Assembly (NCBI GenBank): GCA_003009755.1
Contig: PXUB01000040.1
Location: forward strand, 1 to 38,862
DNA length: 38,862 nucleotides
DNA from: Thermoplasmatales archaeon SW_10_69_26
GTDB lineage: Archaea; Thermoplasmatota; SW-10-69-26
Direction: 5' to 3'
Within the stretch, counting starts at the first letter, position 1, and each line of letters opens with the position of its first letter. Made by a program: the position numbers and the translations under genes. Below the pieces are notes generated by a model. The model saw only the letters and a program-made list of their open reading frames with translations, had not been told where the DNA came from and searched no databases. Below are positions 2,351 to 36,030 of this stretch, in pieces.

Positions 2351-2516
2351 TCGCCGCTCGCCTCGATCGACCCTCGATGGACCGGGGCCGGGCCCAGCGT
2401 CGGCAAGGGCCACCCCGCGTCCCCTCGTGATCGGACGCCGCTCCGGTCGTTCGGTGCTCGTCACCGGACGGCCGGCTCACTTCCGTTTTCTCTCTGTCTC
2501 TTCCCCTTAGCTTCCG

Positions 2517-2957
2517 CTAGACTGCCGGCTGTGCTTGGGTTAAGCTCTCGCTCGGCCTCAGGCGGTGAAAGCGCGGAGCCGAGACGAAGGAGTAGCCGGA
2601 GGCTACTTCGAGGTCGAAGGCGACAACGCTTGGAAACCTCACAACTTGCAAGGATCGTATCATCGCCGCCTGAGGGCGGCCTCGCGTGGAGGCGCCGGTC
2701 TGAGGCGGGCAATCTCGTTGTCGCCCTCCGTCGAAAACCCACAGGATCGCCTCCCGCGGCAACCGGTACACGGCCTCGTCGTCGGCCAGCCACAGCGCGT
2801 CGTCGGTCAACGCGACCGGTGGACCGCCCTCGCCGAACACCTCGATCGGGGTCTCGCCGCGCTCGCGAGCGCGAGCGTCGATCGCCTCGGCGGACGTGTC
2901 CACGTTCACGCGGTAGCGGGACAGCGGGTCGGCGGCGGCGGGATCCACCTCGCTCAT
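2517..2957 (-). pseudogene. Hypothetical protein, probably truncated at ~2735 by repeat insertion
   Basis: Starts 10 nt after the alaS stop. The first ~75 codons are acidic and host-like, then the frame reads through the MITE-like repeats. Confidence 0.45.
2557..2674. mobile_element. MITE-like element with terminal inverted repeats and an internal hairpin
   Basis: CTCAGGCGGTGA / TCGCCGCCTGAG inverted ends (11/12), flanked by GGC on both sides; internal AGTAGCC-gga-GGCTACT hairpin. Confidence 0.5.
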
Positions 2958-2967
2958 GAGGGGACCC

Positions 2968-5790
2968 TCACGTCTCCAGCAGCTCGCGGGCCCGCTCCCG
3001 AGCGGCCTCGATCGCCTCGTCGGTGTTCTCGGCTTGGGGACCGCCGGCGCGGGCCATGTTCGGCGAGCCGCCTCCGCCGCCGCCCAGCGCTTGGCCGCCG
3101 GCGTTCACGACGTCGCTGGCGTCGACGTCCACGTTCGAGCTGGTGGCGACAGCGATGCCGGCCTTGCCGTCGTCGACGCCGCCGACGATCGCGACCACGT
3201 CGTCCTCGTCCACGAGGTCCCCCGCCGCGGACACGACATCGTCCAGCGCGAGGTCCACTCGGGTGGCCACGAGGCGGACGCCGGCCACCGCCTCGGCCTC
3301 GGCCAGCTGCTCGGCGAGGCGGTGGCTGGCGAGCTCGCCGCGCAGCTGCTCGGCCTCCTTCTTGTAATGCTTCCACTCGTCGAAGAACCGGTTGGCCGTC
3401 GAGGGCAGGTCCTCGATGGGGACCTCGAAGGCGTCGGCGGCGTCGTGCAGCAGGTCCTCGCGCTGCTGGACCTGCGTGAGCGCGGCCAGCCCGGCCGCGT
3501 ACTCGATCCGCTCGACGCCGTCCTGCACGCGCTCGGTGCCGAAGATCTTGACCAGGCCCAGCTCGCCGGTCGAGCCGACGTGCGTGCCACCGCAGGCTTG
3601 CACGTCGAACTCGCTGATGCGCACGACGCGGATGTCCTCCTCGTCGGGCACGCCGCCCTGGTAGAGGCGGAAGCCGTGGTTCTGCTCGGCGGTGACGCGG
3701 TCGACCCACGTCTTCTCGACGGGTCGACCCTCGAGCACGATCAGGTTGGCGAGGGTCTCGATCTCGCGGATCTCCTCCTCGGTCAACCGCTGGTAGTGCG
3801 TGATGTCGAGCCGCGAGCGCTCGGTGCCCTTCTGGGCGCCGGACTGCCAGACGTGGTCGCCGAGCACGCTGCGCGCGGCCGCCCCGATGATGTGGGTCGC
3901 GGTGTGGTTGCGCGTCAGCGCCTGGCGGCGCCCCCAGTCGACCTGACCGCGCACGGACTCGCCGACCTTGATCTCCTCGGGCACCTGGTGGACGACGAGA
4001 CCGTCCCACTCCTGCACGTCCTCGACGGGGATCGCCTCCTCGCGAGCGAACAAGAACCCCTCGTCGGCGGGCTGTCCGCCGCCCTCGGGGTAGAAGCCGG
4101 TCTGGTCGAGGATGACACCGTAGCCCTCGTCGACGGGGTCCTCACCGACCCAGAGCACGGTCGCGTTGAAGTCCCTCGTCGTCGCCTCGTCGTAGTACAG
4201 GCGATCGGTCTCCGGCAGGTCCGGCGGCTCGGGACCGGTCTCGATCTCGGCAGCGTCGGCGTCGGCGTGGCGCTGGTTGACCCGCCGGTAGAAGTCGTCG
4301 GGCAGGTCGATGGCGACGCCGGCCTCCTCGGCCACGTCGGCCACGATCTCCGGCGGCATGCCGTGGCTGTCGTACAGCTCGACGAGCCGGTCCGTGGACA
4401 AGCCGTTGCCGGCCTTGGCCTCGAGCTCGCGTCGCACGAGACGCCGGCCGCGCTCGAGCGTGCGATCGAACTTGTCGGCCTCGGTCTCGATCATCGACTG
4501 GATCGAGTCCCGGGCCCGCCACAGGTGGTCGTAGTCCTCGCGCAGCTCGTCGAGGTGGGTCTCGATCACGTCGTAGAGCGGGACGTCGATGGCCACCTCG
4601 TCCATCAGGCGCAGGCTCTTGCGGATGAGCAACCGGGCCAGGTAGCCGGCGCGGACGTTGCTGGGCACGATGCCGTCGCCGAGCATGAACGCCAGGCAGC
4701 GCGTGTGGTCGGCGATGGCGTAGATCCGCTCGAGCGGGGCCAGCCGCTCGGCCAGCTCCTCGGGCCCGATGTCGAACCCGCGCTCGTTCAACCGGTCGGC
4801 GACCTGCTCGCGCAGGTGCCCGAGCTTGGCGCCTGTGTCGACCTCCAGCATGCAGCTCAGCTTGGCGTGCTCGGCGAGGATGTCGGCGGTGGCCGGATCC
4901 TCCCGCGGGTCGACGCCGGCGTGCTCGGTGAGCACGTCCACCGTCTGGGGGAACACGCTCTCGTAGATCGTCGGTGTCCCCTGGCTGGCCCAGACGAACC
5001 GCTCGAGCCCGTAGCCGGTGTCGACGATCGTGAGCGGCATCTCCGCGTAGGGGTCGCCTTTGACCTCGATCGGGCCCTCGGGGTCGGCCTCGTACTGCAT
5101 GAACACGAGCGTCGAGACCTCGAGCCCGTGCGTGAGCACCTCGAAGGCGGGCCCGGCGTTGCCGCCGCCCGCCCACGGGTTCTCCTTGTACGTGACCGTG
5201 TCCGTGTCGACGCCGAGGCTCTCCAAAAGCCCGTGGCAGAGGTTGACGGTGCGCTCCTTGAAGTAGAAGTCGTCGGGGTCGCCGGCTTTGCCCTGCCGGA
5301 TGAACTCGTGACCGTCGGGGTAGTTGAAGCAGTGGTGCCCCATCATCTCGAACATCGTCAGGTGCCGGCCCGAGCGGCCGACGCTGTCCACGTCGTTCAG
5401 CCGGATGCACGGCTGGGAGACGGCCAACGGGTTGGCCGGCGGCGGCACGTTGCCGCTCGTGACGTGAGGCTGGTAGTTCGCGATCGAGGCGATGTTGAGG
5501 TAGATGTCGTCGCGCCAGCGGGCTACGGTCGGCTGCGGGCGCACGCGCTCGTGACCCTCGGCGTCGTGGAACGCGAGGAACCGCTCGCGCATCTCGGACA
5601 GATCGAAGCTCTCGTCGGTGATCGGGGATCCGATGAAGCTGTACTCCGTGCAGGGGGGATCGCCGCACAGCTCGGTGTCCGGGTCCTGCGTCCAGAACCA
5701 GCTCTCGCAGGACGGGCACTGCTTGCGGGAGAACCCGTGCTCGTCGAAGAACCTCAGCCGGTACTCGTCGCTCAGGTCCACGTCGGTCAC
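2968..5790 (-). CDS. alaS: Alanine--tRNA ligase, archaeal type
   Basis: N-terminal CPSC/CGDPPC, HLTMFEMMGHH, DTGYGLER, editing HTATH and CGGTH, C-Ala GGGGGG. GTG start overlaps the upstream TGA. Confidence 0.96.
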   Translation of the reverse strand: MTDVDLSDEYRLRFFDEHGFSRKQCPSCESWFWTQDPDTELCGDPPCTEYSFIGSPITDESFDLSEMRERFLAFHDAEGHERVRPQPTVARWRDDIYLNIASIANYQPHVTSGNVPPPANPLAVSQPCIRLNDVDSVGRSGRHLTMFEMMGHHCFNYPDGHEFIRQGKAGDPDDFYFKERTVNLCHGLLESLGVDTDTVTYKENPWAGGGNAGPAFEVLTHGLEVSTLVFMQYEADPEGPIEVKGDPYAEMPLTIVDTGYGLERFVWASQGTPTIYESVFPQTVDVLTEHAGVDPREDPATADILAEHAKLSCMLEVDTGAKLGHLREQVADRLNERGFDIGPEELAERLAPLERIYAIADHTRCLAFMLGDGIVPSNVRAGYLARLLIRKSLRLMDEVAIDVPLYDVIETHLDELREDYDHLWRARDSIQSMIETEADKFDRTLERGRRLVRRELEAKAGNGLSTDRLVELYDSHGMPPEIVADVAEEAGVAIDLPDDFYRRVNQRHADADAAEIETGPEPPDLPETDRLYYDEATTRDFNATVLWVGEDPVDEGYGVILDQTGFYPEGGGQPADEGFLFAREEAIPVEDVQEWDGLVVHQVPEEIKVGESVRGQVDWGRRQALTRNHTATHIIGAAARSVLGDHVWQSGAQKGTERSRLDITHYQRLTEEEIREIETLANLIVLEGRPVEKTWVDRVTAEQNHGFRLYQGGVPDEEDIRVVRISEFDVQACGGTHVGSTGELGLVKIFGTERVQDGVERIEYAAGLAALTQVQQREDLLHDAADAFEVPIEDLPSTANRFFDEWKHYKKEAEQLRGELASHRLAEQLAEAEAVAGVRLVATRVDLALDDVVSAAGDLVDEDDVVAIVGGVDDGKAGIAVATSSNVDVDASDVVNAGGQALGGGGGGSPNMARAGGPQAENTDEAIEAARERARELLET

Positions 5791-31766: not shown

Positions 31767-33095
31767 CTAGCCCGGCTCCCACCGGTCCCCGTCGACGGTC
31801 ACCGCACCGTCGTCGACGAGCTTGGCCAGGTGGGCCCGCGTGCTGGCGTGGGTCAGCTGCGTGGGCGCCTTCGGCTTGTCCTCGTAGGCGCGCCTGGCGA
31901 TCGCGGGCAGCTGGCGAGCGCCGGCCTCGACGGCGTCCAGCACCTCGACCTCCCGCTCGCGCCGGTGCTCGAGTGTGTCGCGGAACGTCTGGCCCGGACC
32001 GAACACCGGCGGCCCGTGCGCGGGGAACGCCAGCCGGACCCCCTCGTCCTCGCACAGGTCCGCCATGCGCGCGAGGCTGTCCATGTAGGCGGCCATGTCG
32101 CCCTCGTCGGGGTCGACGAGCACGGTCCCGATCCCAGCCACGAGGTCCCCGGGCAGCACCGCGCGTGCCTGGGGCACGTGGAAGGCCAGGTGCCCGGGCG
32201 CGTGGCCGGGCGTCTCGAGCGCGACGAGCGCGTGCTCGCCCAGATCGAGTTCGTCGCCCTCCGCGAGGAGGACGTCGGCCTCGGGCTCGATTCGCTCGGC
32301 GGTGGCCGGCGAGCAGGCCAGCTCGGCGTCGAACTCCTCGAGCAAGGCCTGGACGCCGCCGACGTGGTCGCCGTGGTGGTGGGTGAGGGCCACGTAGGCC
32401 AGGTCCTCGGCGTCGGTCTCCAACGCGTCGAGCGCGTCGAGCAAGGGATCGAGCTCGGGGGGCCCGGCGCCGGGGTCGACGACGGCCAGCTCGTCCTCGC
32501 CGACGACGAAGGCGTTCGTGTGCGTGTGCGGCGGCAGCGTCGAGGTTTCCAGCGGCTCGACGCGCAGCCCGGGCAGGAACGTGATCGGGAACGAGTCGAC
32601 CTCGGTGCCGCGGGCTCGCACCGCCTGGGGCCCGTCGTCGGCGAGCAGCTCGAGCGTGTGGATCACCGGGGGCGGCAGCTTGACCTCGCCGGCTTCCCAG
32701 CCCTCGATGGCGGCCGCGGGCGTGGTCCAGCTGCCCCCCGCCAGCTCGGGTTCGCTGGGCTCGGGCTCGCAAGCCGCGTCGACGTCGGCGAGGAAGAACT
32801 GCGTCCGGTAGCGGATCGGGGAGAAGGGCGGCGTGACGACGACGCCGGCCGGGGCCAGCTCGTCGGGGCTGACCTCGACGCGGGTCTCCTCGCGCAGCTC
32901 GCGGGCCGCGCAGGCGCGCAGCGTCGCCAGCTGGTCCTCGGCCTCGTCCTCGGGCTCGACGCCGCCGCCAGGGAAGGCGTGGAAGCCGGGGAAGAAGCTG
33001 GCCGATCGCGGGCGACGGACGAGGTAGATCTCGCCGTCGGGTCGGCGCAGGATGACGACGGCGCTCGGGTCGGGATCGGGCGGGTGATCGTCCAC
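31767..33095 (-). CDS. NUDIX hydrolase-metallo-beta-lactamase (LACTB2-like) fusion
   Basis: FPGGGVE...AARELREET NUDIX box; THHHGDH, TPGHAPGH, GD, PAHG; C-terminal wHTH-like AHLAKL. Confidence 0.9.
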   Translation of the reverse strand: MDDHPPDPDPSAVVILRRPDGEIYLVRRPRSASFFPGFHAFPGGGVEPEDEAEDQLATLRACAARELREETRVEVSPDELAPAGVVVTPPFSPIRYRTQFFLADVDAACEPEPSEPELAGGSWTTPAAAIEGWEAGEVKLPPPVIHTLELLADDGPQAVRARGTEVDSFPITFLPGLRVEPLETSTLPPHTHTNAFVVGEDELAVVDPGAGPPELDPLLDALDALETDAEDLAYVALTHHHGDHVGGVQALLEEFDAELACSPATAERIEPEADVLLAEGDELDLGEHALVALETPGHAPGHLAFHVPQARAVLPGDLVAGIGTVLVDPDEGDMAAYMDSLARMADLCEDEGVRLAFPAHGPPVFGPGQTFRDTLEHRREREVEVLDAVEAGARQLPAIARRAYEDKPKAPTQLTHASTRAHLAKLVDDGAVTVDGDRWEPG

Positions 33096-33099
33096 GCGA

Positions 33100-34002
33100 T
33101 CAGCCCTGTTCGTCGAGCCAGTCCCAGACGCCGCGCGTGTTCATCCGCACCTCGTGGCGGAACGTGGCCTCGTCGTAGACCTCGAGCCCGGCGTCGTACT
33201 CCTTCATCAACCGCTGCACGGTCTCGTCGAAGGGGTGGCCCTCCGCGCGCAGCTCGCGGATGCGGTCGACCCAGGCCTCGAGGTCGCCCCGGAAGGTTGC
33301 CAGGTGGGCACCGTCGACGACGTTGAAGTGCGTCAAGGCCACGTGATCGGGCTCCAGGGCCTCCAGCTCGTCGAGCGTGTCCCGCCAGGCTTCGAGATCG
33401 AAGGCCGGCGGCGGGGTCGTCATCAGCAACGGTCTCCCCTCGCAACGGATGCCGGCGGCGTCGCCCACGTAGAGGACGCTGGCCTCCAGGTCGAACACGT
33501 TGTACTGGTGGGGGGCGTGCCCGGGCGCGTCGACGAGCTCGAGTTCGCGGCCGCCGAAGGCGACGGTCTCGCCGCCCGCGATCGAGCGCGTCCGGTCGAC
33601 GTCGATCGGTTGCAAGGTCCCGTACTGGGGGAACCGCTCGCTGCCGACGGCCGCCTCGACGGAGGTCATCAGCTTGCCCACGAGCTCGGGGTCGGTGAGG
33701 AACGCGATCCCGTTCTCGTGGATGTGAGCCCTCGCGTTCGGGCACTCCTCCAACAGGCGCCAAGTCGCCCCCGCGTGGTCGAGGTGGATGTGCGTGGGCA
33801 GGATGTCGGTCACGTCCTCCGGCGAGAAGCCCTGCTCCTCGATCGCGTCGAACACGCGATCCACGGTCACGCTGGGTCCGGTGTCCACGATCGCGAGCTC
33901 GTCCTCGCCCGGCAGGAGGAAGAACCCGCAGTAGCCCTCCATCGAGAACCCGCCTGTGTCGTACAGGTAGGCGGGGCCCGGCAGCTTGCGCTCGGCAGGC
34001 AT
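33100..34002 (-). CDS. MBL-fold metallo-hydrolase
   Basis: VDTGP, THIHLDHAG, APGHAPH, GDAAG, LTHF; TTTAT box at 34029-34033 on the minus strand. Confidence 0.92.
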   Translation of the reverse strand: MPAERKLPGPAYLYDTGGFSMEGYCGFFLLPGEDELAIVDTGPSVTVDRVFDAIEEQGFSPEDVTDILPTHIHLDHAGATWRLLEECPNARAHIHENGIAFLTDPELVGKLMTSVEAAVGSERFPQYGTLQPIDVDRTRSIAGGETVAFGGRELELVDAPGHAPHQYNVFDLEASVLYVGDAAGIRCEGRPLLMTTPPPAFDLEAWRDTLDELEALEPDHVALTHFNVVDGAHLATFRGDLEAWVDRIRELRAEGHPFDETVQRLMKEYDAGLEVYDEATFRHEVRMNTRGVWDWLDEQG

Positions 34003-34088
34003 CGCGCCCGCCAGTGCGGACGCGCAGGATAAAGAATGCGGGGGTCGCGACACGACGAGGACGCCGGGCGAGCAACCTGCGACCGGCC

Positions 34089-34440
34089 GTTCGAGACCCC
34101 TCGCGGTCGCGGGGGGGTTCGACGATCCGCCCGGATCGGAGATCCGGGCTCACGTCACGAACAAGCCTGTCTGCCTACTCCCACTCGACCGCGAGGATTC
34201 GGCCCTCAGCCAGGAACCCTCGCGATTCGGACGAACCGACCGTTATCCGCCGGTTCGTACTCTCGAGCGGGAGTTCGCTGGCGCTCACTCCCACTCGACG
34301 GTTCCCGGCGGCTTGTTCTGCGGTTCGAGACCCTCGCTTCGCTCGGGTCTCGAGTTTCGCCTGAATCAGAGATTCGGGCTCACGTCACGAACAAGCCGCC
34401 TACTCCCATTCTACGGTTCCCGGCGGCTTGTTCGTGACGT
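34089..34440. mobile_element. Tandem miniature integrated elements / att scars at the guaAB 3' end
   Basis: Gene-end copies at 34400-34433, 34285-34318 (30/34) and 34175-34189. 29-bp direct repeat 34139-34167 / 34369-34397 (28/29). Perfect 19-bp inverted repeat 34382-34400 / 34422-34440. Several hairpins. Confidence 0.7.
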
Positions 34441-35347
34441 CGTACACGACCCGGTTGACGTGGTCGCCGAGCTGGTTCGTGATACGCGTGCTGATCGAAT
34501 CCAGCACGTCGAGGGGGACCTCGCTGAACGAGGCCGTCATGCCGTCGAGGCTGTCGACGGCGCGGACGGCGATCGTCTCGCCGTAGGCGCGCACGTCGCC
34601 CTGGACGCCGACCGATTGGACGGGGAGCAGCGCGGCGTAGTACTGCCAGGGCCGCTGCATCTTGCCCTCCTCGGCAGCCTGCTCGAGCTCCTCCTCGACG
34701 ATCGCGCACGCCTCGCGCGTGACGTCGACGCGCTCGGGCGTGACCTCGCCCAGCGTGCGGATCGCCAGGCCCGGACCCGGGAACGGTTGGCGCTCGGCGA
34801 CGGGCAGATCGAAGTGACGGGCGACCTCGCGGACCTCGTCCTTGTACAGGTCGTACAGCGGCTCGACGACCTCGAGATCCATCTTCTCCGGCAGGCCACC
34901 AACGTTGTGGTGGCTTTTGATCGTGTCGCGCGTCTCGTCGCCGGACTCGATCCAGTCGGGCGCGATCGTGCCTTGGACGAGGTACTCGGCCTCGAGGCCC
35001 TCGGCCTCCTCCTCGAAGACGCGGATGAACTCCTCGCCGACGACGTTGCGCTTCTCCTCGGGGTCCGTGACGCCCTCGAGCGCGTCGAAGAACCGATCGC
35101 GGGCGTCGACGAAGTCCAGCTCGATCCCCATGTCCTCGAAGATGCGCTCGACCTGCTGGGGCTCGTCCTTGCGCATCAGGCCGGTGTCGACGAAGACCGC
35201 GGTCAGGTGCTGGGGTACCGCCTTGCCGGCCAGCACGGCCGCCACCGTGGAGTCCACGCCACCAGAGCAGGCGATGATCGCGGGACCGTCGACGATCTGT
35301 TGGATCTGCTCGACCTGCTCTTTCACGAAGGCCTCGGGGTCGACCAT
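34400..35347 (-). CDS. guaAB: GMP synthase subunit B (ATP pyrophosphatase)
   Basis: SGGVDS PP-loop, [49 protein letters not shown]; no GATase domain (archaeal split form). Confidence 0.96.
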
Positions 35348-35457
35348 GGGCGCTCGCTTGAGGGTAGCCGGCCGGGGTACAAGAAGGTGGTGGCAGGTCG
35401 TTGCATTTCAACGAGGTCAGCACACGCCTTTTGGCCCGCCCCGCCGCTGGCCACCGT

Positions 35458-36030
35458 ATGCACCGACGTTGGATCCTCGCCGGCCTCGTTGCCCTGGCGT
35501 TGTTGGGAGCCGGTTGCCTGGGCCTCGGCGGCGATGACGGCGGGGACCCAGCCCCCGCCTTGGACGATGACTCGGGCGGTCAGGAGAGCGGCGGCTCGTC
35601 GACGTCCGACGACGCGAACGCGACCTCGGCCTCCTACTTCTCGGCCCCCGGCGACGCGAAGGCCATCGTCGCCGAGGTCCGCTGGGACGGGACCGCCGAC
35701 ATGGACCTGGCCCTCTGGAGCCCGCAGTTCTGCTCGGAGACGACCGCGCCGGAGCCGGCAGGCGAACCCGCCTGCACCATCGGGTACTTCGCCACGGGCG
35801 ACGAGACGCACGCCTACGGCACCGATCGCGCCTCGCCCGCCGTCCAGGAACGACGAGCCGAGGTGCGCGTCGACGCGACCACGATCGCCGAGGAGGCCTG
35901 CGAGACCCCGCCCTGCGAGTGGCAAGCCCACGTGAACCCGAACGTGGCCGTGGACTCGGCCTTCGAGCTGCGCGTCAGCGTCTTCCCCCACCACTCCCCG
36001 CCCGAGGACTACTCGGCGTTCGACGAGTAA
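35458..36030 (+). CDS. Putative lipoprotein
   Basis: MHRRWILAGLVALALLGAGC lipobox, G/S/D linker, beta domain with four more Cys. Confidence 0.82.
   Translation: MHRRWILAGLVALALLGAGCLGLGGDDGGDPAPALDDDSGGQESGGSSTSDDANATSASYFSAPGDAKAIVAEVRWDGTADMDLALWSPQFCSETTAPEPAGEPACTIGYFATGDETHAYGTDRASPAVQERRAEVRVDATTIAEEACETPPCEWQAHVNPNVAVDSAFELRVSVFPHHSPPEDYSAFDE

What the first reader, a model, noticed from the sequence alone, without database searches (positions are those of the whole stretch)
34382..34440. Mini-element carries an antisense copy of its own target that extends beyond the duplicated core
Seen: right after the guaAB stop, a perfect 19-bp inverted copy of codons DVTNKPP folds back over a 21-nt loop holding the last codons. 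The antisense arm includes 7 nt matching coding sequence (ACGTCAC) that are absent from the displaced direct-repeat copy. The same arm is retained in the older unit (34152-34167). Inference: it may help target recognition by base pairing, either as a folded ssDNA attachment site (analogous to CTX-phage attP or integron attC) or as an RNA guide. It could instead be an mRNA 3' hairpin that affects guaAB termination or stability.
Basis: partly seen in the sequence, partly recalled or inferred. Interest (0 to 1): 0.7.

Follow-up and report, generated by a model that had tools for sequence, protein, structure and literature searches.

The report
Gene-end mini-element with target-matching hairpin arm
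The hairpin after this archaeal GMP synthase gene is real and belongs to a tiny gene-less insertion that copies the gene's end and also carries an inverted copy of it, a layout that recurs at many gene ends in this genome and behind tRNA genes across bacteria and archaea.

Summary
A perfect 19-nt inverted repeat (34382-34400 / 34422-34440) spans the stop codon of the GMP synthase subunit B gene. The arm reaches 7 nt beyond the duplicated gene end, and the older unit keeps the arm.

It is not a one-off. The arm is followed by GAG, a hairpin, a CGAAT-like linker and a second hairpin. The same layout, each time with an arm matching its own target, sits behind 13 of 57 tRNA genes and 11 other protein genes of this genome, against about 0-1 expected.

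The only homologous guaA element found, in a genus of the same family, has a 20-nt arm that follows that host's codons: 4 differences, all compensated.

Related strains lack one unit exactly between the repeats, or carry other inner hairpins behind the same arm.

The layout also occurs behind tRNA genes in many phyla, including the classical E. coli tyrT repeats, known as RtT RNA. This scan had noted it before in Patescibacteria.

My best reading is a non-autonomous integrative mini-element whose arm and target form a folded recombination site, with the outer arm acting as a target-matching guide. The mechanism is inferred, not shown.

The parts
34400..35347 (-). GMP synthase subunit B gene (guaA-B), the target; its last ~33 nt are the live copy of the duplicated gene end
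   Evidence: GMP_synt_C, E 7.9e-35
34422..34440 (-). Target half of the stem (codons (D)VTNKPP). The outer 7 nt, 34434-34440, lie outside the duplicated segment
   Evidence: (I1)
34401..34421 (-). Loop: last codons (GTVEWE) and the first two bases of the stop codon
34382..34400 (-). Element-borne antisense arm, 19 nt, perfect. Its inner 12 nt can also pair with the displaced copy at 34307-34318
   Evidence: (I1, I7)
34379..34381 (-). GAG linker (CTC on the + strand), conserved after arms across the genome
34359..34379 (.). Hairpin SL1 (9 pairs, 3-nt loop)
   Evidence: fold; relatives of this hairpin
34325..34353 (.). Hairpin SL0 (9 pairs), after the CGAAA-type linker 34354-34358
   Evidence: fold; (D4)
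34318..34378 (.). Inner hairpin pair. In contigs of run X2 it is replaced by 77 other letters. Contigs of X3 and X5 also break at both edges
   Evidence: tables 5 and 8
34287..34318 (-). Displaced copy of the gene end ([10 protein letters not shown], stop TGA). It differs from the live copy by synonymous changes and in the stop codon
   Evidence: (D2)
34190..34286 (-). Second unit: hairpin, ATTCG-type linker, hairpin, CTCTC-type linker, and a 10-nt arm (one mismatch) facing the WE-stop codons of the displaced copy. With one repeat copy it is absent from a contig of run X3 (joint 34176->34287, 110 nt skipped)
   Evidence: (I13, D3)
34173..34189 (-). Third, shortest copy of the gene end (VEWE, stop TAG)
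   Evidence: D3
34086..34167 (-). Older unit, paralogous to the first: orphan arm 34152-34167, GAG, hairpin 34130-34148, distal hairpin region
   Evidence: (D1 90% over 40 nt, D4, I5)

Best explanation
The hairpin is the gene-proximal junction of a gene-less integrative mini-element about 115 nt long from repeat to repeat. The element belongs to a family that inserts at the 3' ends of tRNA and protein genes. Each member carries three things: a sense copy of the end of its target gene, which becomes the live end of the gene and displaces the old one downstream; an inverted copy of the target 13-20 nt long; and a backbone of GAG, a hairpin, a CGAAT-like linker and a second hairpin.

The junction between chromosomal and duplicated sequence lies inside the stem, usually 4-7 bp from its base. 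The outer part of the arm is therefore complementary only to chromosomal DNA that the element does not itself bring.

I infer that the stem, as a folded single strand or a cruciform, is the recombination site, much as in integron attC or the folded attP of CTX phage. I further infer that the outer arm aligns the element with its target by base pairing, as the short guide next to the hairpin does in IS608. A recombinase encoded elsewhere would do the chemistry.

Shown: the architecture, its recurrence, co-variation with the target, differences between strains, and the presence of an arm in one integrase-bearing island. Inferred: the folding, the guide role, and the enzyme.
For: Recurrence within the genome:
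- 13 of 57 tRNA genes have a perfect inverted copy of 14-18 nt of their own 3' part within 150 nt downstream. The permutation control never exceeds 12 nt. All 13 also have a direct repeat of the tRNA end further on.
- When tRNA genes are chosen by the repeat alone, 19 of 57 qualify. Of these, 10 have a perfect 14-nt inverted match and 6 a match with 2 mismatches. Among the other 37 tRNA genes, 3 are perfect and 1 has 2 mismatches.
- 12 of 2163 CDS ends have a stop-spanning perfect repeat of 13 nt or more, against about 1 expected. 11 of the 12 are followed by (G)AG and two hairpins.

Position of the junction:
- The repeat starts inside the arm's target in 19 units, with 3-13 nt of arm beyond it, most often 4-5.
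- The sequence before the displaced repeat is unrelated to that outer stretch: 23 of 94 positions are identical.

Co-variation: of 85 guaA loci, only the window and L005 carry an arm (19 and 20 nt; control maximum 11). Four differences between the two genes are all compensated, and both arms end at the same codon before GAG.

Mobility: one contig of run X3 lacks 110 nt exactly between two repeats. A contig of X2 has 77 other letters in place of the inner hairpins, with arm and repeat kept.

Retargeting: one hairpin subfamily sits behind different arms.

Link to a recombinase: on contig C2 a low-GC island with a tyrosine integrase (PF00589, E 6.6e-13) has an 11-nt arm right after its own repeat of the tRNA-Gly end.

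- 94 of 123 matches are a single tRNA gene followed by an inverted T-arm copy.
- 63 of those 94 have the direct repeat within the held flank.
- In 57 of 64 units the arm reaches 3 nt or more beyond the repeat. The median unit is 136 nt.
Against: - No recombinase lies in or next to the unit. The genome (95% complete) gives only 3 tyrosine-recombinase hits for at least 24 target specificities, and no Y1 HUH transposase.
- No excised circle, empty guaA site of a near-identical strain or single-stranded form was seen.
- Co-variation at guaA rests on one homologue. Two of the three other family members whose guaA end was read (L003, L004) show neither arm nor element; the third (L002) has only a displaced partial copy and no arm.
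- My first lists required perfect arms, so 'arms are perfect' is partly built in. The unbiased list shows 6 of 19 arms with 2 mismatches.
- In the E. coli RtT model the arm pairs with the downstream repeat, not with the gene. The pairing that matters may therefore be a different one.
- The strain data are contigs, not reads.
Confidence: 0.5

Rival explanations
1. The arm is a by-product of how the unit got there. A free 3' end at the gene end snapped back and copied 13-20 nt of the gene, or the replication template was switched as in tandem inversion duplications. The hairpin module and the direct copy were then joined on. The arm has no function and looks perfect because the events are recent.
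For: - The order sense-antisense-sense is what such events give.
- The arm copies the duplicated part and then runs a few bases further, as limited strand displacement would.
- The arm often starts 0-5 nt after the stop codon with 1-nt overlaps.
- Arms do decay: 6 of 19 have 2 mismatches.
Against: - The window's first and third units and the L005 element share arm end-point, GAG and backbone, so arm and backbone are inherited together.
- An island that integrates by a tyrosine recombinase, which does no synthesis, also carries an arm.
- Live and displaced gene ends differ by synonymous changes and by the stop codon used: TAG/TGA at guaA, TGA/TAG at the C17 gene, TAG/TAA at the C38 gene. This suggests two alleles that both evolved as coding ends, not a fresh duplication.
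- The same layout in many phyla calls for a regular process.
Confidence: 0.25
2. The arm is an extra duplex binding site for an integrase. It is a second, inverted copy of the core-type site placed in the element's arm region, read as double-stranded DNA with no folding and no pairing to the target.
For: - Behind tRNA genes the arm is an inverted T-arm, which is the natural core-site mimic for tyrosine recombinases (passages of the review PMC8371274).
- An integrase island carries such an arm.
- The repeat often starts in the T-loop.
Against: - At least 24 unrelated arm sequences, including arbitrary coding sequence, occur in a genome with 3 integrase hits.
- The distance between arm and target ranges from 13 to about 100 nt. 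That suits a hairpin but not a rigid protein dimer.
- The arm follows synonymous differences of the host gene.
Confidence: 0.15
3. The structure works as RNA. It could be a 3' hairpin that ends or stabilises the guaA message, or a processed small RNA like E. coli rtT, or a guide RNA read from the element.
For: - The E. coli relatives of this layout are curated as an RNA family and yield an RNA product: RF00391, four copies at 133-138 bits in the tyrT locus, annotated rttR.
- The hairpin would form in the guaA transcript.
Against: - No T-run follows the stem, and there is no terminator-like site in 33900-34600.
- No Rfam family matches 33000-35500 at E up to 1.
- In 34 modules the two strands fold equally well (17 against 17) with 33 G-U pairs each.
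- A trailer that pairs with a tRNA's own T-arm and acceptor strand would hinder tRNA folding, yet 13 tRNA genes have one.
- The repeats and the differences between strains are features of the DNA.
Confidence: 0.08

Closest known systems
E. coli tyrT-linked 178-bp repeats / RtT RNA (Rfam RF00391; gene rttR)
   Same: I read the K-12 locus. Each unit follows a tRNA-Tyr gene or a previous unit. It begins with an inverted copy of the T-arm region, holds GC-rich hairpins with GAGAG-like linkers, and ends in a direct copy of the tRNA end that starts in the T-loop. The units stand in tandem.
   Different: - No sequence-level membership: RF00391 does not match the window or any of 19 other loci of this layout tested at E up to 0.01.
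- The target here is a protein gene in an archaeon.
- The E. coli arm has mismatches in the T-loop part.
- The Rfam consensus pairs the arm with the downstream repeat.
- RtT is filed as a cis-regulatory RNA, not as a mobile element. A mobilome preprint (10.1101/2024.07.17.603846, passage read) reports raised coverage of this locus under stress and calls the mode of action unknown.
Integrative elements that replace the 3' end of a tRNA or protein gene, and their integrase-less derivatives (cis-mobilizable elements, CIME)
   Same: Direct repeats of the target end flank the insert and the gene stays intact. Units stack in tandem. One unit is missing between repeats in another strain. An integrase island uses the same tRNA-Gly site.
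   Different: The units are only 60-330 nt, carry no gene, and have a target-antisense arm. The papers I looked at do not mention such an arm: passages of PMC8371274, and search listings only for PMC5704250 and PMC6323972. That elements at icd, fda or guaA in bacteria rebuild the gene end is recalled, not checked here.
Folded single-strand recombination sites: integron attC and CTX phage attP
   Same: A hairpin made from one strand stands in for a duplex site, and the crossover lies inside the stem a few bases from its base. After recombination, part of one arm comes from the partner. The mechanism of these systems is taken from the abstracts of PMC3442271, PMC5027507 and PMC4792948.
   Different: There is no conserved R box and no dif-like site. 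Each stem sequence is specific to its target. The outer arm has no partner inside the element. No IntI or Xer involvement was tested.
IS200/IS605 (IS608) guide-target pairing and its terminal-only derivatives (PATE)
   Same: Hairpins next to a short stretch that pairs with the target or cleavage site. This is recalled knowledge of IS608.
   Different: IS608 pairs 4 nt and makes no target duplication. Here 13-20 nt pair and 10-50 nt are duplicated. No Y1 transposase is found in the genome.

Membership tests
Site-specific integrative element / CIME-like unit at a gene 3' end | Insert flanked by direct repeats of the target's 3' end | tested here: met
   (D2, D3): 32 nt with 30 identical between the live and displaced copies.
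Site-specific integrative element / CIME-like unit at a gene 3' end | Target gene kept intact by the proximal copy | tested here: met
   open frame ending ...KPPGTVEWE*, and a full GMP_synt_C match.
Site-specific integrative element / CIME-like unit at a gene 3' end | Presence or absence between strains, bounded by the repeats | tested here: met
   one X3 contig joins 34176 to 34287, so the second unit is absent. For the first unit only an exchange of its interior was seen.
Site-specific integrative element / CIME-like unit at a gene 3' end | Cognate recombinase and an excised circular form | not testable with these tools
   No recombinase was found among the 12 ORFs of 25.8-38.4 kb scanned. 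There are 3 PF00589 hits elsewhere in the genome. Contigs cannot show circles.
RtT RNA (RF00391) | Covariance-model score at or above 45 bits | tested here: not met
   no Rfam match at E up to 1 in 33000-35500. The positive control, E. coli, scores 133-138 bits.
RtT RNA (RF00391) | Unit starts with an inverted copy of the upstream gene's end and finishes with a direct copy | tested here: met
   for the window; for E. coli.
Integron attC | Conserved R boxes (RYYYAAC / GTTRRRY) at the stem base, and an IntI integrase | tested here: not met
   The stem base is target sequence and differs at every locus. The R-box consensus is recalled. IntI was not looked for.
CTX-type folded attP | Two inverted dif-like sites and integration at dif | tested here: not met
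   The targets are gene ends. The outer arm has no inverted partner in the element.
IS200/IS605 or PATE; REP/RAYT | Y1 HUH transposase in the genome; no target duplication | tested here: not met
   PF01797 is absent (genome 95% complete). Duplications of 10-50 nt are present.
IS110/IS1111 with bridge RNA | Non-coding RNA next to a DEDD transposase that carries the target-matching loops; no long duplication | tested here: not met
   IS110 genes exist, but the region upstream of one copy lacks the GAG-hairpin backbone. Only one copy was read.
Intrinsic terminator-like 3' hairpin | Stem followed by a T-run | tested here: not met
   0 sites in 33900-34600. By eye, the sequence shows no run of five or more T after the stem on the sense strand.

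The most novel reading that the evidence does not exclude
These mini-elements are a widespread class of non-coding mobile DNA, found in both Bacteria and Archaea, whose insertion site is written in nucleic acid. A 13-20-nt arm next to a conserved hairpin scaffold pairs with the target strand across the future junction. The outer 4-7 nt act as a toehold. Rewriting the arm and the adjoining sense copy retargets the element from tRNA genes to arbitrary protein-gene ends. On this reading the classical E. coli RtT repeats would be members of the class.
Probability: 0.3. Interest if true: 0.9.

Novelty: new variant of a known kind. Interest (0 to 1): 0.72.

Why it matters
If the arm directs insertion, this would be a natural system of sequence-programmed integration that needs no gene of its own. 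It would explain the piled-up hairpin modules, the broken-up tRNA genes and the displaced gene tails that fill the spacers of this and other genomes. It would also give a function-level reading to the E. coli tyrT repeats, which have been known for decades without one. Even if the arm is only a by-product, the layout is a recognisable signature of a widespread process of gene-end turnover that current annotation ignores. My searches of the paper library found no description of a target-antisense arm in such units. Subscription journals are largely outside that library.

Tried and rejected
- Rfam on the window region and on 8 other module loci: only tRNAs.
- IS110 link: the region upstream of one transposase copy has no module backbone.
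- The GCGAAGC DNA mini-hairpin motif, seen in the window's SL0 loop, occurs 0 times in 34 modules and shows no strand excess genome-wide: 394 against 360.
- Strand of folding: no bias, 17 against 17.
- A generic scan for GAG plus two hairpins was too noisy: 1637 hits, mostly coding. An earlier TTCG...CTC scan was likewise noisy.
- Metagenome relatives of GuaA-B: 68 loci, all at 69% identity or less, none with an arm.
- The class holds only 21 species genomes, so no wider kin set was available.
- Integrase adjacency for 5 far-flung loci could not be settled, because contig numbers did not map to my loci. For two of them the contig sizes exclude adjacency.
- No RNA holder is listed among the sequencing runs, so expression is untested.
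- A reading as a transposon with terminal inverted repeats and a target-site duplication was rejected. It would require each element's terminal repeat to equal the chromosomal sequence next to its insertion site by coincidence at more than 20 loci.
- The sequence before the displaced repeat does not resemble the outer target stretch. That speaks against a complete CTX-like hairpin in the free form.
- One malformed literature query was re-sent correctly.

Full report
**What is at the site**

The window is contig C40 of a 2.8-Mb, 49-contig genome assembled from a halite metagenome. The minus-strand gene 35347..34400 encodes the ATP-pyrophosphatase subunit of GMP synthase. It hits GMP_synt_C at E 7.9e-35 and ends ...[16 protein letters not shown]. 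The next gene downstream is a metallo-beta-lactamase-fold gene (33100-34053 as scanned), so about 400 nt of spacer lie between the two genes.

Folded as single-stranded DNA, either strand gives -24 to -26 kcal/mol, which none of 200 shuffles reached.

The spacer also holds two more copies of the gene end:
- 34287-34318, reading [10 protein letters not shown] with stop TGA;
- 34173-34189, reading VEWE with stop TAG.

A second copy of the arm plus its neighbouring hairpin lies at 34128-34167, 90% identical over 40 nt. The displaced copy starts 7 nt inside the arm's target, so the arm does reach beyond the duplicated core.

**The hairpin is one module of a recurrent three-hairpin unit**

Read in the direction of the gene, the arm is followed by GAG, a 9-bp hairpin, a CGAAA linker, a second 9-bp hairpin, and then the displaced gene end. 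The second unit (34190-34286) has the same plan with other stems. Its arm faces the last codons of the displaced copy.

A first search for the small GGATC/GAATC-type hairpin found 57 places in the genome, many followed by CTCTC and a further, variable hairpin. Two systematic tests followed.

- asked whether tRNA genes are followed by an inverted copy of their own 3' part. Of 57 tRNA genes, 13 have a perfect copy of 14-18 nt within 150 nt. Pairing each tRNA with the flanks of other tRNAs never gave more than 12 nt.
- One search did the same for 2163 crude CDS ends. Twelve have a perfect stop-spanning repeat of 13-18 nt, against about 1 expected. Eleven of the twelve are followed by (G)AG and two hairpins.

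The protein targets are ordinary chromosomal genes, among them a class II aminoacyl-tRNA synthetase, TFB, acetyl-CoA synthetase and an M48 peptidase.

All 13 tRNA cases, and 8 of the 12 CDS cases, also have a credible direct repeat of the gene end beyond the hairpins.

To remove the bias of asking for perfect arms, selected tRNA genes by the direct repeat alone, which gave 19 of 57.
- Of these, 10 have a perfect 14-nt inverted match, 6 have 2 mismatches, 1 has 3 mismatches, and 2 have 4-5.
- Among the 37 tRNA genes without such a repeat, the usual best match has 4-5 mismatches.

The arm is therefore a near-constant part of these units, and it can decay.

**Where the junction lies**

In 19 units with a usable repeat, the repeat begins inside the arm's target. 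This leaves 3-13 nt of the arm, most often 4-5, complementary to chromosomal sequence that is not duplicated.

The sequence in front of the displaced repeat is unrelated to that stretch: 23 of 94 positions are identical, which is chance level. If a unit were excised between its repeats, the inner part of the arm could pair with the unit's own sense copy. In the window that is 12 nt, pair I7. The outer part would have no partner except the target.

**Co-variation**

I read the 3' end and downstream DNA of guaA in 85 loci: 19 other genomes of the class, further members of the phylum, and 68 metagenome contigs. Only the window and L005 carry a long arm. L005 comes from another genus of the same family and its protein is 74% identical.

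The L005 arm is 20 nt, perfect, with a 19-nt loop. It ends at the same codon before GAG and is followed by two hairpins and a displaced gene end. The two genes differ at 4 of the 19 shared positions, and the arm follows all four. The cross-genome control never exceeded 11 nt.

Of the three other family members whose guaA end was read, two (L003, L004) show no element. The closest relative (L002) has only a direct partial copy after its stop and no arm.

**Differences between strains**

Contigs of four other halite runs were laid on 33600-35000.
- One X3 contig joins 34176 to 34287. It skips 110 nt, that is, the second unit with one repeat copy.
- One X2 contig matches 34268-34317 and 34379-34846 with 77 other letters in between. 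The two inner hairpins are exchanged, while the displaced copy, the GAG linker, the arm and the gene are kept.
- Contigs of X3 and X5 also break at 34317 and 34379.
- All four runs have C instead of T at 34409 and 34412. Both positions are synonymous and lie in the loop.

These are contigs, so they show what exists, not how often.

**Evidence that the live gene end came with the element**

Live and displaced copies differ mostly by synonymous changes and by the stop codon used: guaA TAG/TGA, the C17 gene TGA/TAG, the C38 gene TAG/TAA. In guaA the differences lie in the last 15 nt, and there are none in the first 18. Two copies that both look like working gene ends fit integration of a circle carrying an allelic gene end. 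They do not fit a fresh target duplication.

**Link to recombinases**

The genome has no Y1 HUH transposase, three tyrosine-recombinase hits and IS110-type genes whose upstream region shows no module.

On contig C2 the tRNA-Gly(CCC) gene is followed in turn by:
- a mini unit with a 15-nt arm;
- a repeat of the tRNA end;
- a 9-nt loop and an 11-nt inverted T-arm copy;
- a 4-kb low-GC island with a tyrosine integrase;
- another repeat with a further arm-bearing unit.

An integrase-bearing island thus also carries an arm next to its repeat, and mini units share its site.

**Beyond this genome**

A pattern made of the conserved T-loop segment, a 20-50-nt gap and its inverted copy was run over one genome per species.
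- Of 123 matches, 94 are a single tRNA gene followed by the inverted copy, 4 are convergent tRNA pairs, and 25 have no called tRNA.
- Of the 94, 63 have a direct repeat of the tRNA end within the 300 nt held, usually 40-110 nt past the arm.
- In 57 of 64 units the arm reaches 3 nt or more beyond the repeat, again most often 4-5 nt.
- The sequence before the repeat is 31% identical to the outer stretch. The median unit is 136 nt.

The hosts include Lachnospiraceae, Gammaproteobacteria, Akkermansia, Paenibacillus, Methanosarcinales, Halobacteriales, Nanoarchaeota and Thermoplasmatota.

Earlier notes of this scan describe the same layout in Patescibacteria and hairpin modules in this very genome. 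They are unchecked AI notes, but they agree with what I measured independently.

One of those notes named the E. coli tyrT repeats, so I read that locus. Each of the four RtT units (133-138 bits to RF00391) starts with an inverted copy of the tRNA-Tyr T-arm region, holds GC-rich hairpins and ends in a copy of the tRNA end that starts in the T-loop. The Rfam model itself pairs the arm with the downstream copy. RF00391 matches neither the window nor any of 19 other loci of this layout. RtT is therefore one sequence family within a broader architectural class.

**How it most likely works**

Shown: a gene-less unit bounded by repeats of the gene end, with an arm matched to its own target, the junction inside the stem, inheritance of arm and backbone together, gain, loss and exchange between strains, and recurrence at many targets.

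Inferred: the stem, as a folded strand or cruciform, is the site of strand exchange. The outer arm aligns the element with the target, and a recombinase encoded elsewhere acts on it. I put this at about 0.5.

The main rival is that the arm is a templated by-product of insertion or repair (0.25). It explains why the arm runs just past the duplicated part. It does not explain the shared end-points, the allelic gene ends, or the arm in an integrase island.

A duplex protein-binding site (0.15) is hard to square with more than 20 unrelated arm sequences and with spacings of 13-100 nt.

An RNA role (0.08) has no support here: no T-run, no strand bias, and no Rfam match. The E. coli RtT RNA keeps this reading open.

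**Limits**

- Gene calls for the CDS survey were crude: open frames with high third-position G+C.
- The wide scan covered only T-loop arms, and only its first 120 loci.
- Co-variation at guaA rests on one pair.
- No RNA run holds the region.
- No enzyme was tested.
- Most subscription-journal literature, including the original tyrT papers, was not readable here. What I say about IS608 guides, R boxes and the gene-end replacement by elements at icd, fda or guaA is recalled.

Noticed in passing
window 2516-2745: A copy of a dispersed ~230-nt repeat that matches the ends of many contigs of this assembly. Several repeat families have 20-45 matches.
   Followed up: partly
window 34409 and 34412: Two synonymous positions in the hairpin loop are T here but C in contigs of all four other halite runs. 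The live gene end uses GTA GAA, which looks unusual for a genome with about 69% G+C (composition).
   Followed up: no
L002 (G004:C99), about 19-50 nt after the guaA stop: The closest relative has a direct partial copy of its own guaA end just after the stop, but no antisense arm and no hairpin unit. It may be the scar of an earlier exchange.
   Followed up: no
G000 contig C2, 33.4-37.5 kb (L039 covers part): A low-GC island (55-63%) at tRNA-Gly(CCC) with a tyrosine integrase in two overlapping ORFs of 219 and 214 aa. Only the first hits PF00589. Arm-bearing mini units flank the island on both sides.
   Followed up: partly
L041 (G000:C1:120812-124303), 2390-3190: tRNA-Ser(TGA) has three tandem upstream copies of its 5' part. 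Each is followed by hairpins and an 11-nt inverted copy of the D-arm region. Displaced middle and 3' pieces lie downstream. Units therefore also enter at the 5' side of a gene, as a mirror image.
   Followed up: partly
arm ends genome-wide: Arms tend to end in GA just before the GAG linker: 6 of 12 CDS arms. GAGAG thus straddles arm and linker, and the targets mostly start with TC or TTC. Class-I tRNA arms end in GAAC. This points to a sequence preference at the base of the stem.
   Followed up: no
window 34334-34344: On the gene-sense strand, the loop of hairpin SL0 contains GCGAAGC, the extraordinarily stable DNA mini-hairpin (abstract of PMC13037366). The motif is not a general feature of the modules.
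   Followed up: yes
L007, L016, L019, L026 (guaA loci of other families of the class): Tandem or single mini units after guaA, each ending in a copy of the last codons. Some have short or imperfect inverted copies: 11 of 12 nt in L026 and L019, 11 of 13 nt in L016, by eye.
   Followed up: partly
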